The notes under the pieces: generated by a model | The model's input: only the letters and a program-made list of their open reading frames with translations | The model's database searches: none | Told to the model about the DNA's origin: nothing | Source of the DNA: Nanobdellota archaeon | GTDB taxonomy: Archaea; Nanobdellota; Nanobdellia; Woesearchaeales; SM23-78 | Length of the DNA stretch: 64,000 nucleotides | Reading direction: 5' to 3' | Assembly: GCA_018819305.1 (NCBI GenBank) | Contig: JAHJQO010000010.1 | Location: 8,429-72,428 of the forward strand | Shown: in pieces, positions 2,378 through 16,048 of the stretch | Position numbering within the stretch: the stretch's first letter is position 1 | Layout of the letters: every line of letters starts with the position of its first letter | Translations under genes and position numbers: made by a program

Positions 2378-2404
2378 CCCACTCCCTATGTTTTCGACTG
2401 GAAC
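2378..2404 (-). promoter_or_regulatory. Origin recognition box ORB-1 (Orc1/Cdc6 binding-site type)
   Basis: The reverse complement reads gtTCCAgtcGAAAacataGGGAGTGGG. This fits the pattern TCCA-N3-GAAA-N5-G-string shared by all four full boxes in this window. Confidence 0.6.
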
Positions 2405-2510
2405 TTGAAATCAATGTGAAATAGGAGTAATCAAAGTAAAATTTGAGTGATTTCATAATTGTTTATTTATTCTTAGTTAATTCTTGGTTATTTCATTGCT
2501 TTCTTCAGCA

Positions 2511-2757
2511 AAATCATTATTATGTTATTATATCATCTTATTATATTATATATTATTATATATAATATATTTATTATAATATAATATTTTCTATATAGAA
2601 ATCAATTATTATTAAAATAAAAAAATCAAACACAATTTATTTTAAAATAAATAAATTTAGTATTAAATGATTAATTTTAATATTAAATAAAAACACTTTA
2701 ACATAAAAACTCAATCTAATTTTTTTCATTCAAACCAATTTTTTCCTTCAAAAAAAA
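2511..2757. other. Duplex unwinding element of oriC (almost pure A/T)
   Basis: About 250 bp with very few G/C bases, made of short ATTATA/TATAAT runs. It lies exactly between the inverted ORB-1 and ORB-2 boxes and upstream of orc1/cdc6. Confidence 0.6.
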
Positions 2758-2783
2758 CTCCATACGAAATCCAGGTGAGGGGG
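2758..2783 (+). promoter_or_regulatory. Origin recognition box ORB-2 (inverted relative to ORB-1)
   Basis: cTCCAtacGAAAtccagGTGAGGGGG on the plus strand; same TCCA-N3-GAAA-N5-G-string pattern. Confidence 0.55.
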
Positions 2784-2829
2784 TTTAATTTCTTATTATA
2801 TATTGGTTTATATATTTTAATTAATATAT

Positions 2830-2840
2830 TCTATAGGAAA
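2830..2840 (+). promoter_or_regulatory. Possible mini-ORB (no G-string)
   Basis: TCTAtagGAAA, one mismatch from the TCCA-N3-GAAA core. Confidence 0.25.
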
Positions 2841-2876
2841 GCAAACTTTATAAACCTTGGTTTCTTTTGGAAATTT

Positions 2877-2887: not shown

Positions 2888-2904
2888 AGAATTAGGTGGG
2901 TGTG

Positions 2905-4113
2905 ATGAAAAAAGAAGAAAATAACATATTTGAACAATTTTTAAAAAAAGAATCTCTTTTTAAAGATAAAAAAGTTCTCCAATCAGGATACATTCCTGAC
3001 GAAATAAACCACAGAGATGAGCAAATAACACAAATAGCAAACATTCTTGCGCCTGCTCTCAGAATGGAAAAGCCTTCTAATGTATTTATTTATGGAAAAA
3101 CAGGCACAGGTAAAACATTATCTGTGCGGTATCTTGCTGAACAAATGAAGACTTTAGCATATAATAAGAAAATTTCTTTGAAAATAATATATGCTAACTG
3201 CAAATTAAAGAAAATTGCAGACACAGAATACAGGTTGATTGCACAATTAGCAAGAGAATTTGGAAAAGAAATACCACCCACAGGTCTTCCAACTGATGAA
3301 GTATATAACATTTTTTTTCAGGCATTAGAAGAAGAAAAAGGAACAATTATTTTTATTTTAGATGAAATTGATCAATTAATAAAAAAGGCAGGTGATGAAA
3401 TCATATATAATCTAACCAGAATTAATTCTGAGTTAAAAGAGTCGCAAACAACACTTGTTGGTATAAGTAATGATTTGATTTTTTCAAATAATCTAGATCC
3501 TAGAGTCAAGAGTTCTTTGAGTGAAGAAGAAGTAATTTTTCCTCCTTACAATGCTGTTCAGCTTCAAAATATTTTGAAAAGAAGAGCAAAAGAAGCTTTT
3601 AAAGATGGTGTTTTAGGTGAAGGAGTTCTTCAGAAATGCGCAGCTTATGCAGCCAGAGAACACGGTGACGCAAGAAGAGCATTAGAGCTTCTTAGAGTAG
3701 CAGGAGAATTGGCTGAAAGAAAAGGACATAATATAATAACAATGAATAATATTGATGAAGCAGAAAACATAATTGAAAAAGACAGAGTTTTAGAACTAAT
3801 AAAAAATCAACCTAAACAATTTCAGGCAACTCTTTACTCAATTATTATTAACAAAAACAATTCAAAAAACAAATTTATTCAAACAGGAGATGTTTATGAT
3901 ACTTATAGACAATTTTGTGGAAAAATAGGTTTAAGACCTTTGACTCAGAGAAGAATATCAGATATAATTGCAGAACTTGACATGATGGGTATTATTAACG
4001 CTAAAGTCATATCTAAAGGCAGATTTGGAAGAACCAGAGATATAAATCTAATTTTGCCTGTTTCTATTGAATTAAAAATTAAGAAGATTTTAGAAGATGA
4101 TTTGTTTGGATAG
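2905..4113 (+). CDS. cdc6: Orc1/Cdc6 replication initiator
   Basis: AAA+ Walker A GKTGTGKT, Walker B ILDEID, sensor region and C-terminal winged helix (RPLTQRRISDIIAELDMMGII). The ORF opens at GTG 2896, but ATG 2905 has aGGTGG 6 nt upstream. Confidence 0.9.
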   Translation: MKKEENNIFEQFLKKESLFKDKKVLQSGYIPDEINHRDEQITQIANILAPALRMEKPSNVFIYGKTGTGKTLSVRYLAEQMKTLAYNKKISLKIIYANCKLKKIADTEYRLIAQLAREFGKEIPPTGLPTDEVYNIFFQALEEEKGTIIFILDEIDQLIKKAGDEIIYNLTRINSELKESQTTLVGISNDLIFSNNLDPRVKSSLSEEEVIFPPYNAVQLQNILKRRAKEAFKDGVLGEGVLQKCAAYAAREHGDARRALELLRVAGELAERKGHNIITMNNIDEAENIIEKDRVLELIKNQPKQFQATLYSIIINKNNSKNKFIQTGDVYDTYRQFCGKIGLRPLTQRRISDIIAELDMMGIINAKVISKGRFGRTRDINLILPVSIELKIKKILEDDLFG

Positions 4114-10720: not shown

Positions 10721-11344
10721 TTACTCAAGTATCTTTAACTTACCAGGCCGAACTTCAAAGATTTCTCCTTCTTCAATAAGCTTTTGAATCAGTTCTTCTG
10801 CATTCTTTGCCTGGCTTCGTTTTATTACTTCTTCTGTTTCTGCGCCTTCTCCAGTGTCAAGGTCTTTTATGAACTCAAGAATTTTTTGAAAATAATTAAC
10901 TGGCTGAGTATCTCCTTTTACAGGAATCCTGTTTTCAACTTTTTTTACTTTAATTTTTTTTCTCAGCACTTCTAATTTTAGCTGCCTGTACACACCCCAT
11001 TTTTGCTCAATTTTTTTTACAATTTCAGGCAAAACATATTTTTGCTCATTATAAATTCGCGGTCTTCCTATAATCAAAACTAAGTCTCCTACATTGATAT
11101 TTTCAAATGCATCATTTTCAAAGCTTCTAAGAAGAATACGTCCGCTGCCATCATCTATGACTACGCTTCCGCCTTGTTCTTTGCTTACAATAACTCCTGT
11201 AAGATTAACACGGGAAATATCTCCATAAGCAGTTGAGAAATAACTAGGGTTCCAGCCCTCTGTTTTAACAAAACTCCCATTAAGTAAATCATTCACTTTA
11301 CACATAAATGCGGTTTCTCTTTTGATTTGAGCCATAAAAATCAA
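10721..11344 (-). CDS. OB-fold nucleic-acid-binding protein with C-terminal winged helix (RPA32/Stn1-like)
   Basis: OB core VNLTGVIVSKEQGGSVVIDDGSGRILLRSF...VGDLVLIIGRPRIYNEQKYVLPEIV and a C-terminal wH-like tail. Adjacent to mcm. The start may be the fourth codon (MAQIK). Confidence 0.5.
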   Translation of the reverse strand: MIFMAQIKRETAFMCKVNDLLNGSFVKTEGWNPSYFSTAYGDISRVNLTGVIVSKEQGGSVVIDDGSGRILLRSFENDAFENINVGDLVLIIGRPRIYNEQKYVLPEIVKKIEQKWGVYRQLKLEVLRKKIKVKKVENRIPVKGDTQPVNYFQKILEFIKDLDTGEGAETEEVIKRSQAKNAEELIQKLIEEGEIFEVRPGKLKILE

Positions 11345-11374: not shown

Positions 11375-13390
11375 TCAAATTCTTGAAATCACTCCGTGCT
11401 TTGGACTAAATATGTCTCCTGAACGTTTTAGTTTTTCAATAACATCATTTAATTTGTTTTTATCCACGCCTCTTATTTCTGCTTCTCTTTCAACATCCTC
11501 TAGAGGAATTGTTTTTCCAAGAACTTTTTCAAGTTCATTAATTACCTCTCTGACAATAACAATTTCATTTCTTTGAGAAGCACTAATACCTGTAACCAGC
11601 CGGTCAATATCAATTTTTCCTGTGTCAGGATCCATACCAATCTGGCTTAGGCAATAATGAATAATATCTATTGCCCGTCTAGCATCTTTTTTTGTAACTT
11701 TTTCTCTGAGCTCTACCTTTGCACTGGCTTCACTAAGTCGTATCAATGCTTCTAATTGCCTTGCACTAATAGGGATTGTCTTTATACCTGAGTCTCCACT
11801 ATCCATATTGCGCATTGTGACAAAGAAGTCCTTTATTTCATTTAGGGCAACATCTGTTAATTTTGGGAAAATTTTTCTTCTGGCATAAGAAACATATTTT
11901 TTTAATAACTCTGAACTAATTACTGTTTCTTGCTTTTCAGATGTTTGATGCAGTCTTAAAATAAAATTTGCCATTTTTTCATCTTTTTCTTTATTTGGCA
12001 GATCTCTAAAAGGAAAAATTAAATCAAAACGATTAATTAGAGTTGTTGGAAGTTCGATTTGCTTAGCAATCATTTCATAAGGGTCAAATCTCCCAAATTT
12101 TGGATTTGCAGCGGCAAGAACAGTGGTTTCAGCTTTTAATGTTGCCTGAATATTTGCTTTGCTAATACTGATTGTCTGCTGTTCAAGTGCTTCGTGCATA
12201 GCACTCTGGTCTTCAGGCGTCATTTTATCAAGTTCATCAATACAGCATATTCCTTTGTTTGTCAGAACCAATGCGCCTGCTTCCAATGCCCATCCTCTGA
12301 GAAATTCATCTTTTACAACAGTTGCAGTTAGTCCTGCGCCTGTTGCTCCTTTTCCACTTACATATCTGCTCTTAGGAGCTATCACGCTAACTCTTTTTAG
12401 AAGCTGTGACTTGCCACTTCCAGGGTCGCCAATAAGCAATATATGGATGTCTCCTCGTGTAATGTCTCCTCTATCTCTTTTCTTTATCACACCTCCCAGC
12501 ATCTGAAGTAATATTGCTTCTTTTACTTTTTCATGACCATAAATGCTTGGTGCAAGAGATTCTGTTAGTTTTTCAAAAATCCTTTTATCTTTTGAAAGCT
12601 CTAATATCTCTTGTTCCTCTTCTTCACTAATATCTAAATCATAAAAATCTTCTTGAATAGGTTCTACATTGTTCGCATCACTGAAAAGATCAAATCTAGT
12701 GGTTCTGATTCCTGCTATTTCAATAGGTACTTCTTTGATAATACCAACGACATTTATTTTATTGCCTGGATTAGTTTTTTTATCACTCATAGGACTGACT
12801 AAATCACTTTTTAAAAATATGTTCAGACGTTTTGGTTGTTCTCCTCCTCCCAAGTCTTCAGGTGCTTCTTCTAATACAAGTTTTTGAGCGTCTACTAATT
12901 CTTTTGATATTAATCTGAATTTTCCGCGTCTTCCGCAGCTGCATCTGCTTGGTTCTTTGAATTTGGTGTCTAATTGAAGAACTGCAATGATATTACCGCA
13001 GCTAGGGCATTCAAAACGTGCACTCGTAACCTGAGGCCTGACATCACTTTTTTGCCTGACCAGGCCTTCCAGTTCAATTAATTTTCCAATATGTTTGCTA
13101 CGGATGTTTCTTATCTGTGCTTTTTGCGATTCAGGTAGATTAAAGAACCTGATTTTAAAATTCTGAGTGTCTCCGTCGATATCAAAGCTTTCAACAGTTA
13201 GTTCAGCAGCCTTTATTATTTCTTCTGGTTTCTCAAGTAGTAGTTCTGCAAGTTCAGGGTTAAATTTTGACAATAAATTAAAATTTACTTTAAGATATTT
13301 TTCTCCTTTGCTAACCTGACGTAGAAGATCTTTATAATAATCTGTTTCAATAAATTTATGAAACAAATTCATTTGTTCTGTAACATCCAC
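11375..13390 (-). CDS. mcm: MCM replicative helicase
   Basis: Zinc motif CPSCGN..CSCG, Walker A GDPGSGKS, Walker B CCIDELDKM, arginine finger SRFDLIF, and a C-terminal wH. Confidence 0.95.
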   Translation of the reverse strand: MDVTEQMNLFHKFIETDYYKDLLRQVSKGEKYLKVNFNLLSKFNPELAELLLEKPEEIIKAAELTVESFDIDGDTQNFKIRFFNLPESQKAQIRNIRSKHIGKLIELEGLVRQKSDVRPQVTSARFECPSCGNIIAVLQLDTKFKEPSRCSCGRRGKFRLISKELVDAQKLVLEEAPEDLGGGEQPKRLNIFLKSDLVSPMSDKKTNPGNKINVVGIIKEVPIEIAGIRTTRFDLFSDANNVEPIQEDFYDLDISEEEEQEILELSKDKRIFEKLTESLAPSIYGHEKVKEAILLQMLGGVIKKRDRGDITRGDIHILLIGDPGSGKSQLLKRVSVIAPKSRYVSGKGATGAGLTATVVKDEFLRGWALEAGALVLTNKGICCIDELDKMTPEDQSAMHEALEQQTISISKANIQATLKAETTVLAAANPKFGRFDPYEMIAKQIELPTTLINRFDLIFPFRDLPNKEKDEKMANFILRLHQTSEKQETVISSELLKKYVSYARRKIFPKLTDVALNEIKDFFVTMRNMDSGDSGIKTIPISARQLEALIRLSEASAKVELREKVTKKDARRAIDIIHYCLSQIGMDPDTGKIDIDRLVTGISASQRNEIVIVREVINELEKVLGKTIPLEDVEREAEIRGVDKNKLNDVIEKLKRSGDIFSPKHGVISRI

Positions 13391-13455: not shown

Positions 13456-14217
13456 TTATTTAATTGCTTTTAAGGTTTCAACCAGCTTGTCAAGAGCTGC
13501 ATGAACCTCTGCTTCGGACTTAGTTCCTGTGCAAACCACTTTTCCATTGCTAAACAGCAAAAATGTGGCTTTTGCTTCCATCAATTTATAAACCAGTCCT
13601 GGAAATTGTTCAGGTTCATATTCTGTATTGTCTAATTTCATAGCTAAAACATTTAAATTAAGATCCATACCAATACTTCCACTCGCAACAATGTTCTGAA
13701 TATTTAGTTTTGGTTTAATAGTAATATTAATACCTATTTTCTTTAGGCTTTCTATGATTCGGTCAATGCTTTCCTCCACTTTCTCAATGCTTCTAGCTCC
13801 TGTGCAAACCACTTTTCCTGAACTAAAGATTAAAGCAGAAGTTTTAGGATCCTTTATTCTAATTACTAGTCCTGGAAATTGTTCAGGATTATATTCAGTG
13901 TTGCTCAATGTTGCAGCCATTTTCTCAAGTGGAATATCATGCTCTAAGCTTGTTGATACAACTATATTAACAATACGGATATCTTTTGGTCCCGCATTAG
14001 CATATTTTTCAGATACTTTTTTGACACTTGATTTAATAGTTTGAACAGGCTTCTTTTTTACCTTTGCCAGTGATTTTTTTGCTACCTTTTTTACTAGTTT
14101 TTTTTGAATAGTCTTTTTGACTATTTTTTTAGCAATTATTTTCTTTTTTGGCTTTGAAACTTTTTTTGCTGTCTTCTTTTTAACAGCTTTCTTGGTTTTA
14201 TTTGTTTTTTTCACCAT
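13456..14217 (-). CDS. tbp: TATA-box binding protein with about 75-aa lysine-rich N-terminal extension
   Basis: Two TBP repeats (NPEQFPGLVIRIKDPKTSALIFSSGKVVCTG and EPEQFPGLVYKLMEAKATFLLFSNGKVVCTG) follow MVKKTNKTKKAVKKKTAKKVSKPKKK.... There is no in-frame ATG/GTG/TTG between the tail and the TBP fold. Confidence 0.9.
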   Translation of the reverse strand: MVKKTNKTKKAVKKKTAKKVSKPKKKIIAKKIVKKTIQKKLVKKVAKKSLAKVKKKPVQTIKSSVKKVSEKYANAGPKDIRIVNIVVSTSLEHDIPLEKMAATLSNTEYNPEQFPGLVIRIKDPKTSALIFSSGKVVCTGARSIEKVEESIDRIIESLKKIGINITIKPKLNIQNIVASGSIGMDLNLNVLAMKLDNTEYEPEQFPGLVYKLMEAKATFLLFSNGKVVCTGTKSEAEVHAALDKLVETLKAIK

Positions 14218-14347
14218 TATGATTCCCCCTTATTTTACGTTTAGTCGAGAGCTTTATAAACCCTTTATAAAGGAGAAAATCCAGCCCATTTATAAATGCT
14301 TTTATCCTGAAAAATAGGTTTAACAAAGATTGTTTTGAAAAACATAA

Positions 14348-14371
14348 GCCCCCATGATTTCCTATGGAAAC
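14348..14371 (-). promoter_or_regulatory. ORB-type box (second cluster, copy a)
   Basis: The reverse complement reads gtTTCCAtagGAAAtcatgGGGGC. Confidence 0.5.
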
Positions 14372-14431
14372 ACAGTTCTTCCGTTTAATAAACAGATTTA
14401 ACGCAAAATAAAGCGTCCAGTATACCTTTAA

Positions 14432-14454
14432 CCCCCCATGATTTCCACTGGAAA
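14432..14454 (-). promoter_or_regulatory. ORB-type box (second cluster, copy b)
   Basis: The reverse complement reads tttTCCAgtgGAAAtcatgGGGGGG, the best match to the palindromic TCCAGTGGA core plus G-string. Confidence 0.55.
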
Positions 14455-14575
14455 ATAACAGGAATTAATGGTTTTTTTGTTATTTTTAGGATTTATGGTA
14501 TTTTAAGCTTTGTTCCGAATTTCACTTCGTTCGATAAATAAAGGCTTCTTGGACAAAGAAGGTATCTTAAAAACA

Positions 14576-14585
14576 TTTATATATA
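14576..14585 (+). promoter_or_regulatory. TATA box for the 14612 gene
   Basis: aaaacaTTTATATATa ends 26 nt before ATG 14612, which implies a leaderless mRNA. Confidence 0.45.
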
Positions 14586-14611
14586 AGCAGATTAAAAATA
14601 TATTTAGGAAA

Positions 14612-15310
14612 ATGATAGGGTGGTTTAGGAAAAAAGTTAAATTAGAGCAGATGAATTCAGGTTTAGTGTCAGCTTTTTCTAGGATTCGTGAAGATCTTGC
14701 TTCTCAGAAGAAGTTTTTAGAAGATATGTATGAACAACATCATGGTTTTAAGGGATCTACAACCTTAAATCATCAGAGGATTGCAGATTGGATACATCAT
14801 TTTGATAAATCTATTATTCACCTTGAGAAAAACGTGATGGTTTTAGAGAAATCTATTCGTGAAGACTTTCAAAATCTTACTTCTACTTCACTTAATTTGT
14901 TCAAAGAAGCATATGCAAAGAATATTAAGGATGTAAAAGCTGTAAAACAAGAGATTCTTAAGGAAGTCGAGGTTTTTATGAAGGATTATGAAGAAAAACA
15001 GCAAATTAAGCTCAAAGCTAATGTTGATAATGTTGATAATGTTAGTAATGTTAAAAAAATAATGCCTGAGCCACATTATGATGGTTTATCCAATCCCGAA
15101 AGATGGCTCGTAGGGGTTTTGTTTAATGCTGACAATCCTTTATCTTATTCTCAGATTGCTCAGAAAACTGGAAAGACAATTAATACTGTTCGCGTCTATA
15201 TGAACCAATTAAAATTTAAAAGTTTAGTAGATGAAAGCACGCTTCCAAATGGTATAAAACTTTTTAGTCTTCAACATAAAGCAAAAGTAAAAAAACTTTA
15301 TAATCTTTAG
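14612..15310 (+). CDS. Coiled-coil protein with C-terminal winged-helix DNA-binding domain
   Basis: The ORF opens at 14510, but the TATA box at 14576 lies inside that extension, so ATG 14612 (MIGWFRKK) is the likely start. C-terminus: LSYSQIAQKTGKTINTVRVYMNQLKFKSLV (wHTH). Confidence 0.55.
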   Translation: MIGWFRKKVKLEQMNSGLVSAFSRIREDLASQKKFLEDMYEQHHGFKGSTTLNHQRIADWIHHFDKSIIHLEKNVMVLEKSIREDFQNLTSTSLNLFKEAYAKNIKDVKAVKQEILKEVEVFMKDYEEKQQIKLKANVDNVDNVSNVKKIMPEPHYDGLSNPERWLVGVLFNADNPLSYSQIAQKTGKTINTVRVYMNQLKFKSLVDESTLPNGIKLFSLQHKAKVKKLYNL

Positions 15311-15313
15311 ACC

Positions 15314-15354
15314 CATTATAATGTGTTATAATGCGCATTATAATGCATTATAAC
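15314..15354. repeat. Four tandem copies of a 10-nt palindromic motif CATTATAATG
   Basis: cattataatg-tgttataatg-cg-cattataatg-cattataacg read directly, immediately after the stop of the wHTH gene. Confidence 0.6.
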
Positions 15355-15505: not shown

Positions 15506-16048
15506 ATGAAGATTGATATTGTGATTCCAAAAAATAATGAACAAGAAATTTTAGATATGGCTATTCAGCTTGGTTTTAAAGAGTTGATTTTCCTTTACAC
15601 TGATTTGAACAAAAAGCCTTTGGTTTTGAAATCTGATAAAATCAAACTCTATACTGCGGGTTTGGCAATGCAGACAAAAGATGTAGATAAAGCAGGTAAA
15701 AATTATGACTTTGTGTTTGGGCCTGCTCAAAGAGCTTTTTTTGAGAACAAAAAAATCAAATACCTTGTGAATGCTGAAACAGATGAAAAAAAGGATTTTT
15801 TATATCAAAAAAGAGCAGGTCTTGATGATGTGATGTGTCGCTTAGCTAAAGAGAAAAATCAGATAATTGTGTTCAATATGCAAATCATAGCTGAAAAACC
15901 ATTAGTTTTGGCAAGAATGGTGCAAAATGCCAAATTGTGCAGAAAATATAAAGTTGATTTTCTTGCGGCGTCATTTGCCACATCTCCTTTGGAAATGAGA
16001 TCGCCTATAGATATTGATGGTTTTTCAAGAATGATTAAACTTTTGTGA
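15506..16048 (+). CDS. rnp3: RNase P protein component 3 (Rpp30-like)
   Basis: The C-terminal segment ARMVQNAKLCRKYKVDFLAASFATSPLEMRSP parallels the conserved ARKY-V-(L/F)...S-A......LRSP region of archaeal Rpp30, as I recall the family. Confidence 0.55.
   Translation: MKIDIVIPKNNEQEILDMAIQLGFKELIFLYTDLNKKPLVLKSDKIKLYTAGLAMQTKDVDKAGKNYDFVFGPAQRAFFENKKIKYLVNAETDEKKDFLYQKRAGLDDVMCRLAKEKNQIIVFNMQIIAEKPLVLARMVQNAKLCRKYKVDFLAASFATSPLEMRSPIDIDGFSRMIKLL

What the first reader, a model, noticed from the sequence alone, without database searches (positions are those of the whole stretch)
14348..14454. Second pair of full ORB boxes 11.5 kb from oriC, in the 395-bp gap between tbp and a wHTH gene
Two direct copies 84 bp apart, whose reverse complements read TTTCCAtagGAAAtcatgGGGGC and TTTCCAgtgGAAAtcatgGGGGGG. 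They are better matches to the palindromic ORB core than the boxes at the main origin, and they share the identical tcatg spacer. Both point the same way, with the G-string toward tbp. No inverted partner and no long A/T tract is evident. Possible readings are a second or dormant origin, an Orc1-dependent transcriptional control site for tbp or the downstream gene, or a replication-fork or MCM-loading-related site. The flanking gene (14612-15310) encodes a coiled-coil protein with a C-terminal winged helix. That recalls, speculatively, origin-adjacent initiator genes such as whiP in Sulfolobus.
Basis: partly seen in the sequence, partly recalled or inferred. Interest (0 to 1): 0.6.

Follow-up and report, generated by a model that had tools for sequence, protein, structure and literature searches.

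The report
Initiator boxes upstream of helicase operon
Two near-perfect binding boxes for the archaeal replication initiator Orc1 sit in fixed register with the promoter of the operon for the TATA-binding protein and the MCM helicase, a layout kept across Woesearchaeota, so they most likely let the initiator tune helicase expression and do not mark a second replication origin.

Summary
Two direct 22-nt ORB boxes lie at 14349-14370 and 14433-14454, 84 bp apart. They are the only perfect ORBs in this 1.53-Mb Woesearchaeota draft genome: 38-41 bits against 17 bits or less in shuffles.

They are not an origin. They have no inverted partner and no A/T-rich unwinding element, whereas the real oriC at 2379-2786 has both.

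The boxes belong to the promoter of a conserved tbp-mcm(-OB/wH) operon:
- In 29 of 44 Woesearchaeales families sampled, one or two ORBs lie upstream of tbp.
- They always point at tbp (46 of 46 exact hits).
- Pairs are spaced 83-88 bp.
- The proximal box lies exactly 34 or 48 bp from the first BRE/TATA.
- Sister orders keep tbp-mcm but have no such box (0 of 12).

The only initiator encoded is an Orc1-1-type protein.

Best reading (about 0.6): an Orc1-operated upstream control element for tbp-mcm, comparable to DnaA boxes in bacterial promoters.

The neighbouring coiled-coil wHTH gene shows no WhiP/Cdt1 features, although its family always sits beside these boxes.

I found nothing equivalent in the searchable literature. 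Earlier notes of this scan report the same element in other Woesearchaeota genomes.

The parts
14349..14370 (-). Proximal ORB box (TTTCCATAGGAAATCATGGGGG; conserved extension GGGGGCTTA reaches 14345). The G-string points toward tbp.
   Evidence: (40.6 bits). Conserved at 80% mean pairwise identity against 52-53% in the flanks.
14433..14454 (-). Distal ORB box (TTTCCAGTGGAAATCATGGGGG), 84 bp upstream of the proximal box, same orientation.
   Evidence: (38.7 bits). Pair spacing is 83-88 bp in 18 of 19 pairs across relatives.
14289..14303 (-). First BRE/TATA of the tbp promoter (AAAGCATTTATAAAT), 48 bp downstream of the proximal ORB.
   Evidence: Conserved block in the genus alignment. The ORB-to-motif distance is exactly 34 or 48 bp in 26 of 35 loci.
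14253..14274 (-). Two further TATA boxes (CCTTTATAAAGGGTTTATAAAG), followed by CTCTCGACTAAA and a GGGGG Shine-Dalgarno before the tbp ATG.
13456..14217 (-). tbp, with a Lys-rich N-terminal tail; first gene of the operon.
   Evidence: Pfam TBP, E=4.6e-62.
11375..13390 (-). mcm (replicative helicase), 65 bp downstream of tbp on the same strand.
   Evidence: Pfam MCM, E=1.6e-92. tbp->mcm adjacency in 30 of 30 order-level loci and 10 of 12 loci from other orders. Gap sequence.
10721..11344 (-). OB-fold gene with a possible C-terminal winged helix (RPA32-like), 30 bp downstream of mcm; probable third operon gene.
   Evidence: Pfam OB fold. Weak NCBIfam match to the MCM C-terminal WH region. Called RPA32-like in earlier notes.
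14612..15310 (+). Divergent coiled-coil plus C-terminal wHTH gene (P0001 family, function unknown), with its own TATA at about 14572-14586.
   Evidence: Divergent from tbp-mcm in 8 of 8 contigs examined.
2379..2786 (.). The true oriC, for comparison: ORB(-) at 2379-2404, A/T-rich DUE at about 2500-2740, ORB(+) at 2759-2786. Mini or degenerate ORBs lie at 2829-2842 and 2876-2900, just before orc1.
   Evidence: The inverted (-)/(+) pairs beside orc1 are the second class of ORB hits across the order.
2896..4113 (+). orc1/cdc6, the only initiator found in the genome; Orc1-1 type.
   Evidence: Pfam Cdc6_C and lid. Single genomic hit. E=3e-103 to S. solfataricus Orc1-1 (2QBY_A) and 6.5e-96 to A. pernix ORC1 (2V1U), with the wing/HTH segment nearly identical.

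Best explanation
The two boxes are binding sites for the genome's single Orc1-1-type initiator. They are built into the upstream region of the promoter of the tbp-mcm(-OB/wH) operon.

One Orc1 monomer would bind each box with the same polarity. The boxes are 84 bp apart, about eight helical turns, so both monomers would sit on the same face of the DNA. The proximal box ends 48 bp before the first BRE/TATA, which puts the boxes at roughly -85 to -106 and -169 to -190 from the inferred start site.

From there Orc1 would modulate recruitment of TBP/TFB/RNA polymerase. This would couple synthesis of the helicase it loads (and of TBP) to initiator level or nucleotide state. Because the boxes lie upstream of the BRE and do not overlap it, I lean toward activation, roughly 55:45 over repression. 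ORB-like boxes that overlap the orc1 leader (2829-2842, 2876-2900) would autoregulate orc1.

Shown: the sequence, its uniqueness, conservation, orientation, phasing with the promoter, absence of origin features, and the presence of an Orc1-1 orthologue.

Inferred: that Orc1 binds here, that tbp and mcm are co-transcribed, and the sign of the effect.
For: 1. Canonical ORB, unique in the genome.

2. The same 19-nt core pattern across 121 Woesearchaeales genomes gives about 230 hits against about 10 for the reversed-pattern control. Of the 150 hits listed, 46 lie less than 600 bp upstream of tbp. All 46 are on the tbp strand and none is opposite, in 40 of 68 genomes.

3. The PWM finds at least one strong site upstream of tbp in 20 of 30 plus 9 of 14 families, always in the tbp orientation.

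4. Pair spacing is 83-88 bp in 18 of 19 pairs. The proximal box lies exactly 34 bp (11 loci) or 48 bp (15 loci) from the first BRE/TATA-like motif, although the intervening sequence has diverged.

5. The boxes are 77-80% identical within the clade, against 39-53% for the flanks (alignment).

6. tbp->mcm adjacency holds in all 30 order-level loci.

7. The boxes stay with tbp wherever oriC and orc1 lie: 4 to 32 kb away and on either side, and in G049 with oriC beyond polD.

8. The element is order-specific. Other orders of the class keep tbp-mcm (10 of 12) but have 0 of 12 boxes, and their ORB hits sit beside orc1.

9. The window's Orc1 is a close orthologue of the two Orc1 proteins crystallised on ORB DNA, and the genome holds no other Cdc6_C hit.

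10. Other non-origin ORBs exist in the order, adjacent to another gene and 100-290 kb from orc1. ORBs are therefore used outside origins here.
Against: - There is no binding or expression data. Only DNA metagenomes hold this sequence.
- About one third of Woesearchaeales families lack a recognisable box, so the control is dispensable or replaced in those.
- The tbp-mcm gap in this genome (65 bp) contains a T6 run and TATA-like A/T words. mcm may therefore also have its own promoter.
- In Pyrococcus, genome-wide ChIP found Cdc6/Orc1 essentially only at oriC (PMC1904270). An initiator Orc1 acting at promoters has no experimental precedent.
- The PWM was trained on tbp-upstream sites, so the low scores of the oriC boxes are partly circular. 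The pattern-based counts do not have this bias.
Confidence: 0.6

Rival explanations
1. An initiator-titration or inactivation locus comparable to E. coli datA. High-affinity ORBs near the origin would sequester Orc1, or stimulate its ATP hydrolysis, once they are duplicated early in S phase. This would limit re-initiation, and transcription of tbp would be incidental.
For: - In this genus the boxes match the consensus better than the oriC boxes do.
- In most genomes they lie only 4-32 kb from oriC, inside a conserved replication island.
- The concept is established for DnaA (summarised in PMC3936714).
Against: - A sink needs neither a fixed orientation toward tbp (46 of 46) nor an exact 34/48-bp register with the TATA box.
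- One or two sites give little titration capacity.
- This reading does not exclude the best explanation.
Confidence: 0.12
2. A second, dormant or auxiliary replication origin, or a directional MCM-loading site beside the mcm gene.
For: - These are full ORBs, the element that recruits MCM through Orc1-1 in Sulfolobus (PMC12141716, introduction).
- The site lies next to mcm.
- The dyad side of the distal box faces moderately A/T-rich DNA (GC 0.27-0.28 at 14440-14530).
Against: - No DUE: minimum GC is 0.20-0.23, against 0.03-0.10 at oriC.
- The boxes are direct, not inverted. In Sulfolobus oriC1 both inverted ORBs are required (PMC12141716).
- Many families have a single box.
- The promoter register has no role in an origin.
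Confidence: 0.07
3. The boxes are operators for another DNA-binding protein and only resemble ORBs. A candidate is the divergently encoded coiled-coil wHTH protein (14612-15310).
For: - The P0001-family gene is divergent from tbp-mcm in 8 of 8 contigs examined.
- Coiled-coil wHTH genes recur next to ORBs in other lineages.
Against: - Four same-genus genomes keep both boxes without this gene in the gap (L010, L012, L013, L015).
- The closer P0001 relatives (40% identity or more) form a small set of about 60 clusters, and of the loci examined only those of this clade carry the gene beside tbp, whereas boxes occur upstream of tbp in 29 of 44 sampled families of the order.
- The same motif flanks the DUE beside orc1 in the same genomes.
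Confidence: 0.05
4. An evolutionary relic: half of an ancestral origin left behind when the orc1-oriC segment moved, and now without function.
For: In G113 and G049, tbp and orc1 are near-neighbours on opposite strands, about 1.3 kb apart. An ancestral mcm<-tbp<-ORBs...oriC->orc1 layout is therefore conceivable.
Against: - A relic would not stay 77-80% identical while the flanks fall to 39-53%.
- It would not keep exact spacing to the TATA box across more than 25 families.
- Sister orders with tbp-mcm lack the boxes entirely, which points to gain and maintenance rather than slow decay.
Confidence: 0.04

Closest known systems
Origin recognition boxes (ORB) of Orc1-1-dependent archaeal origins (Sulfolobus oriC1, Aeropyrum oriC1, Pyrococcus oriC)
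   Same: - Same motif: TCCA-N3-GAAA dyad plus a G-string.
- Same kind of initiator encoded (Orc1-1 orthologue).
- By analogy, each box is expected to bind a monomer with polarity (PMC12141716).
   Different: - Direct, not inverted.
- No DUE.
- 11.6 kb from oriC and orc1.
- In exact register with a promoter.
- In Pyrococcus, Cdc6/Orc1 was found only at oriC (PMC1904270).
DnaA boxes in bacterial promoters (dnaA autoregulation and the DnaA regulon)
   Same: The replication initiator's own origin motif is reused at fixed positions in promoters of replication-related genes. This would work in the same way.
   Different: The protein family and domain of life differ (AAA+ Orc1/Cdc6 with a wH domain, against DnaA domain IV). 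The target includes a general transcription factor gene. No experimental evidence exists here.
Orc1-2 of Sulfolobales, the DNA-damage-response regulator (PMC6061795, PMC9738581)
   Same: An Orc1/Cdc6-family protein acting as a sequence-specific transcription regulator.
   Different: Orc1-2 is a dedicated non-initiator paralogue that is not encoded at an origin. Here the genome has one Orc1, of the initiator type, and the sites are canonical ORBs.
E. coli datA locus
   Same: A cluster of strong initiator boxes outside the origin but near it.
   Different: datA has more boxes, needs IHF, and is not phased with a promoter. Here there are only one or two boxes, locked to the tbp TATA.
Mini-ORB cluster in the dp1 gene of Thermococcales (PMC1904270)
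   Same: ORB-type repeats outside the core origin, within the replication gene island.
   Different: Those are 13-bp mini-ORBs inside a coding region contiguous with oriC, and they contribute to origin binding. These are full ORBs in an intergenic promoter region 11.6 kb away.

Membership tests
Archaeal ORB (Orc1-1-type origin recognition box) | Dyad core TCCA-N3-GAAA (TTCCAnnGGAAA) | tested here: met
   Both boxes match perfectly.
Archaeal ORB (Orc1-1-type origin recognition box) | G-string 4-5 nt to one side of the dyad, giving polarity | tested here: met
   GGGGG and GGGGGG follow the 5-nt spacer TCATG.
Archaeal ORB (Orc1-1-type origin recognition box) | The same motif flanks the DUE beside orc1 in the same lineage | tested here: met
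   Inverted (-)/(+) hits lie next to orc1 in many Woesearchaeales genomes. In this genome the oriC boxes are one-mismatch versions.
Archaeal ORB (Orc1-1-type origin recognition box) | A cognate Orc1-1-type initiator is encoded | tested here: met
   Single Cdc6_C hit in the genome. E=3e-103 to 2QBY_A, with a conserved wing/HTH segment.
Archaeal ORB (Orc1-1-type origin recognition box) | Bound by Orc1 in vitro or in vivo | not testable with these tools
   The organism is uncultured and only DNA metagenome runs are available.
Archaeal chromosomal replication origin (oriC1 type) | ORBs in inverted orientation flanking the initiation zone | tested here: not met
   Both boxes have the same orientation and no inverted partner lies in the gap.
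Archaeal chromosomal replication origin (oriC1 type) | A/T-rich duplex unwinding element | tested here: not met
   Minimum GC is 0.20-0.23 around the boxes, against 0.03-0.10 over about 200 bp at oriC.
Archaeal chromosomal replication origin (oriC1 type) | Replication initiates there (marker frequency, 2D gels, RIP mapping) | not testable with these tools
   No culture is available. Metagenome depth cannot separate sites 11.6 kb apart.
Initiator-controlled promoter (analogue of DnaA-box promoters) | Initiator boxes at a fixed position and orientation relative to the core promoter | tested here: met
   46 of 46 hits on the tbp strand. Distance to the BRE/TATA is exactly 34 or 48 bp in 26 of 35 loci.
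Initiator-controlled promoter (analogue of DnaA-box promoters) | The arrangement is conserved beyond the neutral expectation across species | tested here: met
   Present in 29 of 44 families and 0 of 12 in sister orders. Boxes are 77-80% identical against 39-53% for the flanks.
Initiator-controlled promoter (analogue of DnaA-box promoters) | Promoter output changes with initiator binding | not testable with these tools
   No RNA data are available.
datA-like initiator titration locus | A cluster of several high-affinity boxes with an accessory protein site | tested here: inconclusive
   Only one or two boxes are present. No further conserved element lies between them.
WhiP/Cdt1-like initiator (for the 14612-15310 gene) | Sequence homology to WhiP, Cdt1 or plasmid Rep winged-helix initiators | tested here: not met
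   No Pfam, NCBIfam or PDB match apart from weak generic HTH_24 hits.
WhiP/Cdt1-like initiator (for the 14612-15310 gene) | Tandem winged-helix fold | tested here: inconclusive
   The AlphaFold model has mean pLDDT 55. Residues 2-138 are helical, and only about 70 C-terminal residues remain, which is room for one wHTH. No fold search was run because confidence was too low.

The most novel reading that the evidence does not exclude
The phased, same-orientation ORB pair, together with the TATA-box array, forms a non-canonical, transcription-coupled helicase-loading or 'helicase depot' site. Polar Orc1 monomers would load newly made MCM in cis beside its own gene. Alternatively, they would loop to oriC 11.6 kb away across the replication island. 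In either case the site would take part in replication licensing and not only in transcription.
Probability: 0.07. Interest if true: 0.85.

Novelty: new variant of a known kind. Interest (0 to 1): 0.55.

Why it matters
If Orc1 binds here, a genome with a single Orc1/Cdc6 uses the same protein and the same DNA motif for two jobs: to fire the origin, and to control the genes for its client helicase MCM, an RPA32-like protein and the general transcription factor TBP.

That would be an archaeal counterpart of the bacterial DnaA regulon. It would give a simple feedback loop between licensing capacity and helicase supply in an ultra-small DPANN cell. No such circuit has been shown for an initiator-type archaeal Orc1, and Pyrococcus ChIP argued against one.

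The prediction is directly testable with recombinant protein and synthetic DNA, even though the organism is uncultured.

Tried and rejected
- **Second origin.** Rejected on composition and box geometry.
- **Known RNA element.** Rfam finds nothing at E<=1 in 14150-14700. The terminator-like call on the proximal box is a by-product of the ORB dyad.
- **TCTCGACT, shared by the orc1 and tbp leaders.** It occurs 9 times in the genome, which is not enriched. I kept it only as a note.
- **The 18.8-bit site at C20:13170.** It is a Shine-Dalgarno-like chance match in front of a 35-codon ORF.
- **Homology between the window's wHTH family (A1) and 'gene X' (A2).** hhalign gives a probability of 10%, so this is not supported. 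tblastn finds no gene X in this genome.
- **Structure of the wHTH protein.** The model is too poor (pLDDT 55) to search by fold, and PDB sequence search gives nothing meaningful.
- **RNA-seq evidence.** No RNA runs hold the locus, so I did not lay reads.
- **Literature.** Four full-text searches and targeted reads found no description of ORBs at tbp-mcm. The 208-genome Nanobdellota preprint mentions neither ORB, TBP nor MCM.

Full report
**What is there.** The window comes from a Woesearchaeota (DPANN) metagenome-assembled genome of 1.53 Mb, 34% G+C and 57 contigs. Between tbp (13456-14217, minus strand) and a coiled-coil/wHTH gene (14612-15310, plus strand) lie two direct copies of a 22-nt element. 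They read TTTCCATAGGAAATCATGGGGG (14349-14370) and TTTCCAGTGGAAATCATGGGGG (14433-14454) on the minus strand, 84 bp start to start.

**More than chance.** The degenerate pattern TTTCCANNGGAAANNNNNGGGG has only these two exact hits in the window and in the whole genome. A position weight matrix gives 40.6 and 38.7 bits. The next best genomic site scores 18.8 bits and is a Shine-Dalgarno-like chance match. Five shuffled genomes reach at most 17.2 bits.

**The real origin.** The canonical oriC lies upstream of orc1. It has an ORB on the minus strand at 2379-2404, about 200 bp of 3-10% G+C, and an ORB on the plus strand at 2759-2786. Degenerate boxes follow at 2829-2842 and 2876-2900, just before the orc1 start. 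After orc1 come the PolD small and large subunits, aIF2-beta, a SpoIIM-like gene, an OB-fold gene, mcm and tbp. The genome has a single Cdc6_C hit. That protein is a close orthologue of the two Orc1 proteins crystallised on ORB DNA: S. solfataricus Orc1-1 (E=3e-103) and A. pernix ORC1 (E=6.5e-96). Its wing and HTH segment is almost identical to theirs.

**Not an origin.** Around the two boxes, 60-nt windows never fall below 20% G+C. Both boxes point the same way and no inverted partner exists. In Sulfolobus oriC1, inverted ORBs flanking an A/T-rich element are both required for activity (PMC12141716). Two testable defining features of an origin are therefore not met.

**What the boxes go with.** In six same-genus genomes the pair is present at the same place, about 150 and 235 bp before the tbp ATG. 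It has the same orientation and is spaced 83-88 bp. The wHTH gene lies in the gap in only two of those six.

tbp is followed directly by mcm on the same strand in all 30 order-level loci fetched. In this genome the gaps are 65 bp (tbp to mcm) and 30 bp (mcm to the OB gene).

I scanned 121 Woesearchaeales genomes, one per family, for TCCANNNGAAANNNNGGGG. The scan gives hits in 108 genomes, about 230 in all, against about 10 for the reversed control pattern. Of the 150 hits listed:
- 46 lie within 600 bp upstream of tbp. All 46 are on the tbp strand, and they fall in 40 of 68 genomes.
- A second class consists of inverted (-)/(+) pairs beside orc1, that is, the oriC.

By PWM, 20 of 30 and 9 of 14 further families carry at least one strong box upstream of tbp, always in the tbp orientation.

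Outside the order, other Nanoarchaeia keep tbp->mcm (10 of 12 loci) but have no box upstream (0 of 12). Their ORB hits sit next to orc1 in 20 of 30 loci.

The boxes follow tbp wherever oriC lies. oriC is 4-32 kb away and on either side. In G049 it lies beyond the PolD large-subunit gene, while tbp and orc1 are near-neighbours on opposite strands.

**Register with the promoter.** The genus alignment shows four conserved blocks: the distal ORB; the proximal ORB with GGGGGCTTATGTT; AAAGCATTTATAAAT; and CCTTTATAAAGGGTTTATAAAGCTCTCGACTAAA. The last two blocks form an array of BRE/TATA elements ahead of a GGGGG ribosome-binding site.

Across families the sequence between the proximal ORB and the first BRE/TATA-like motif has diverged, but its length has not. 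It is exactly 34 bp in 11 loci and exactly 48 bp in 15 loci, out of 35 with a measurable distance. The 48-bp class, to which this window belongs, looks like a 14-bp duplication of the TATA unit.

Pair spacing is 83-88 bp in 18 of 19 pairs. Families with a single box truly lack the second one.

Within the clade the boxes are 77-80% identical pairwise, and the 30-nt flanks 39-53%.

With a start site about 25 nt after the TATA box, the boxes lie at about -85 to -106 and -169 to -190. That is upstream of the BRE and does not overlap it.

**Mechanism proposed.** Each box would bind one Orc1 monomer with the same polarity. This is an inference from orthology and from the Sulfolobus and Aeropyrum work cited in PMC12141716 and PMC3089459, which also report DNA bending of about 35 degrees. 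The 84-bp spacing, eight helical turns, puts both monomers on one face of the helix.

The locked distance to the TATA array implies that the complex acts on assembly of the transcription pre-initiation complex at the tbp-mcm(-OB/wH) promoter. Position upstream of the BRE is typical of archaeal activators (general knowledge, not tested here), so I lean toward activation. The orc1 leader boxes that overlap the region between the TATA box and the start codon would give autorepression.

The logic resembles the bacterial DnaA regulon and dnaA autoregulation. A datA-like titration role is compatible with the data but does not explain the orientation or the register. No RNA data exist for this organism, so binding, co-transcription and the sign of the effect remain inferences.

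**The neighbouring wHTH gene.** The protein has about 140 helical (coiled-coil) residues followed by about 70 C-terminal residues with weak HTH_24 similarity. It has no Pfam, NCBIfam or PDB family, and the structure model is poor (pLDDT 55). Nothing supports a WhiP/Cdt1-like tandem winged helix.

Its family comprises about 60 clusters, all Woesearchaeota hypothetical proteins. The gene was divergent from tbp-mcm in all 8 contigs I examined. It is therefore a constant resident of this gap within a narrow clade. However, the boxes occur far more widely than the gene.

**Further non-origin ORBs.** In other Woesearchaeales, a tight tandem of ORBs lies next to a different 125-155-aa coiled-coil plus HTH gene, which I call 'gene X' (motif YCSKA[ST]FYRY). 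The ORBs are 22-56 bp apart with the flank GGGGTGTCT, and are followed by four to six GTCTCA/TGAGAC repeats. The gene is often followed by a DUF192 gene, and the locus lies 100-290 kb from orc1 in complete genomes. This genome lacks it.

In another order of the class, the ORB-like 19-mer lies inside the coding sequence of a similar protein.

These observations show that ORBs are used outside origins in this lineage. Why they keep company with this protein architecture is unexplained.

**Comparison with what is known.** The element is a member of the ORB motif family on every sequence criterion I could test. It is not a member of the replication-origin class. It would work like DnaA boxes in bacterial promoters. 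The nearest archaeal precedent is Orc1-2 of Sulfolobales, which is a dedicated non-initiator paralogue (PMC6061795).

Genome-wide ChIP in Pyrococcus found Cdc6/Orc1 only at oriC and explicitly contrasted this with DnaA (PMC1904270). Four literature searches found no description of ORBs at tbp-mcm.

Earlier notes of this same scan describe the same feature in at least eight other Woesearchaeota genomes and reach the same reading. I reached my reading before seeing them (records it), and they are not independent evidence.

**Verdict.** It is a real, strongly conserved, order-specific regulatory element. The most likely function is an Orc1-operated control module of the tbp-mcm operon, with confidence about 0.6. 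It is a new variant of a known kind, and experiment is needed to show binding and effect.

Noticed in passing
L050-L059 (other Woesearchaeales genomes, e.g. G102:C1:868.8 kb, G114:C1:379.6 kb); absent from this genome: This is a third class of ORB site. A tight direct tandem of ORBs (22-56 bp apart, flank GGGGTGTCT) is followed by 4-6 GTCTCA/TGAGAC repeats. It lies next to a 125-155-aa coiled-coil plus HTH gene (motif YCSKA[ST]FYRY), which is often followed by a DUF192 gene. The locus is 100-290 kb from orc1. It could be an Orc1-regulated gene with its own operator array, or an unrecognised replication or segregation element.
   Followed up: partly
L087 1237-1938 and L089 1025-1837 (another order of Nanoarchaeia, family f137): The ORB-like 19-mer lies inside the coding sequence of a coiled-coil plus wHTH protein. 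It encodes S-T-(G/R)-N-(E/V)-G just before a VPTDRQTDRQTD motif. A P0001-like paralogue is encoded next door.
   Followed up: partly
window 14253-14303: The tbp promoter carries an array of three TATA boxes: AAAGCATTTATAAAT, CCTTTATAAAGG and GTTTATAAAG. Multi-TATA arrays upstream of tbp recur across the order. They might let TBP regulate its own gene.
   Followed up: partly
window 2829-2842 and 2876-2900; window 14238-14249: Degenerate ORB-like boxes (TTCTATAGGAAAG and TCTCGACTGGAAGAATTAGGTGGG) bracket the orc1 TATA box and leader, and G049 has a similar box just before its orc1 start. The octamer TCTCGACT also follows the last tbp TATA box. It is conserved in five of the six genus genomes in the alignment, with TCCCGACT in the sixth, but it is not enriched genome-wide (9 copies).
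   Followed up: partly
window 15314-15354; L115 about 2880-2920: The CATTATAATG-type palindromic repeats just after the wHTH gene in this window have a counterpart (CATTTATAATGCATTATAACGCATTATAAATG) upstream of the wHTH homologue in L115. They may be that protein's own binding sites.
   Followed up: no
L049 (G049:C1:76500-90000), 12077-12333: In this relative the inverted-ORB/DUE origin lies beyond the PolD large-subunit and aIF2-beta genes, not at the 5' end of orc1. The orc1 upstream gap is only 129 bp. The oriC-orc1 linkage is therefore not fixed in the order.
   Followed up: partly
window 13993-14217 and L010-L015: The Lys-rich N-terminal tail of TBP varies greatly in length within the genus. 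It ranges from about 50 to about 190 residues before the conserved core.
   Followed up: no
window 15506-16048: This 180-aa ORF has no Pfam hit. It has a weak NCBIfam match to RNase P protein component 3 (Rpp30), E=2.5e-8, far below the curated cut-off.
   Followed up: no
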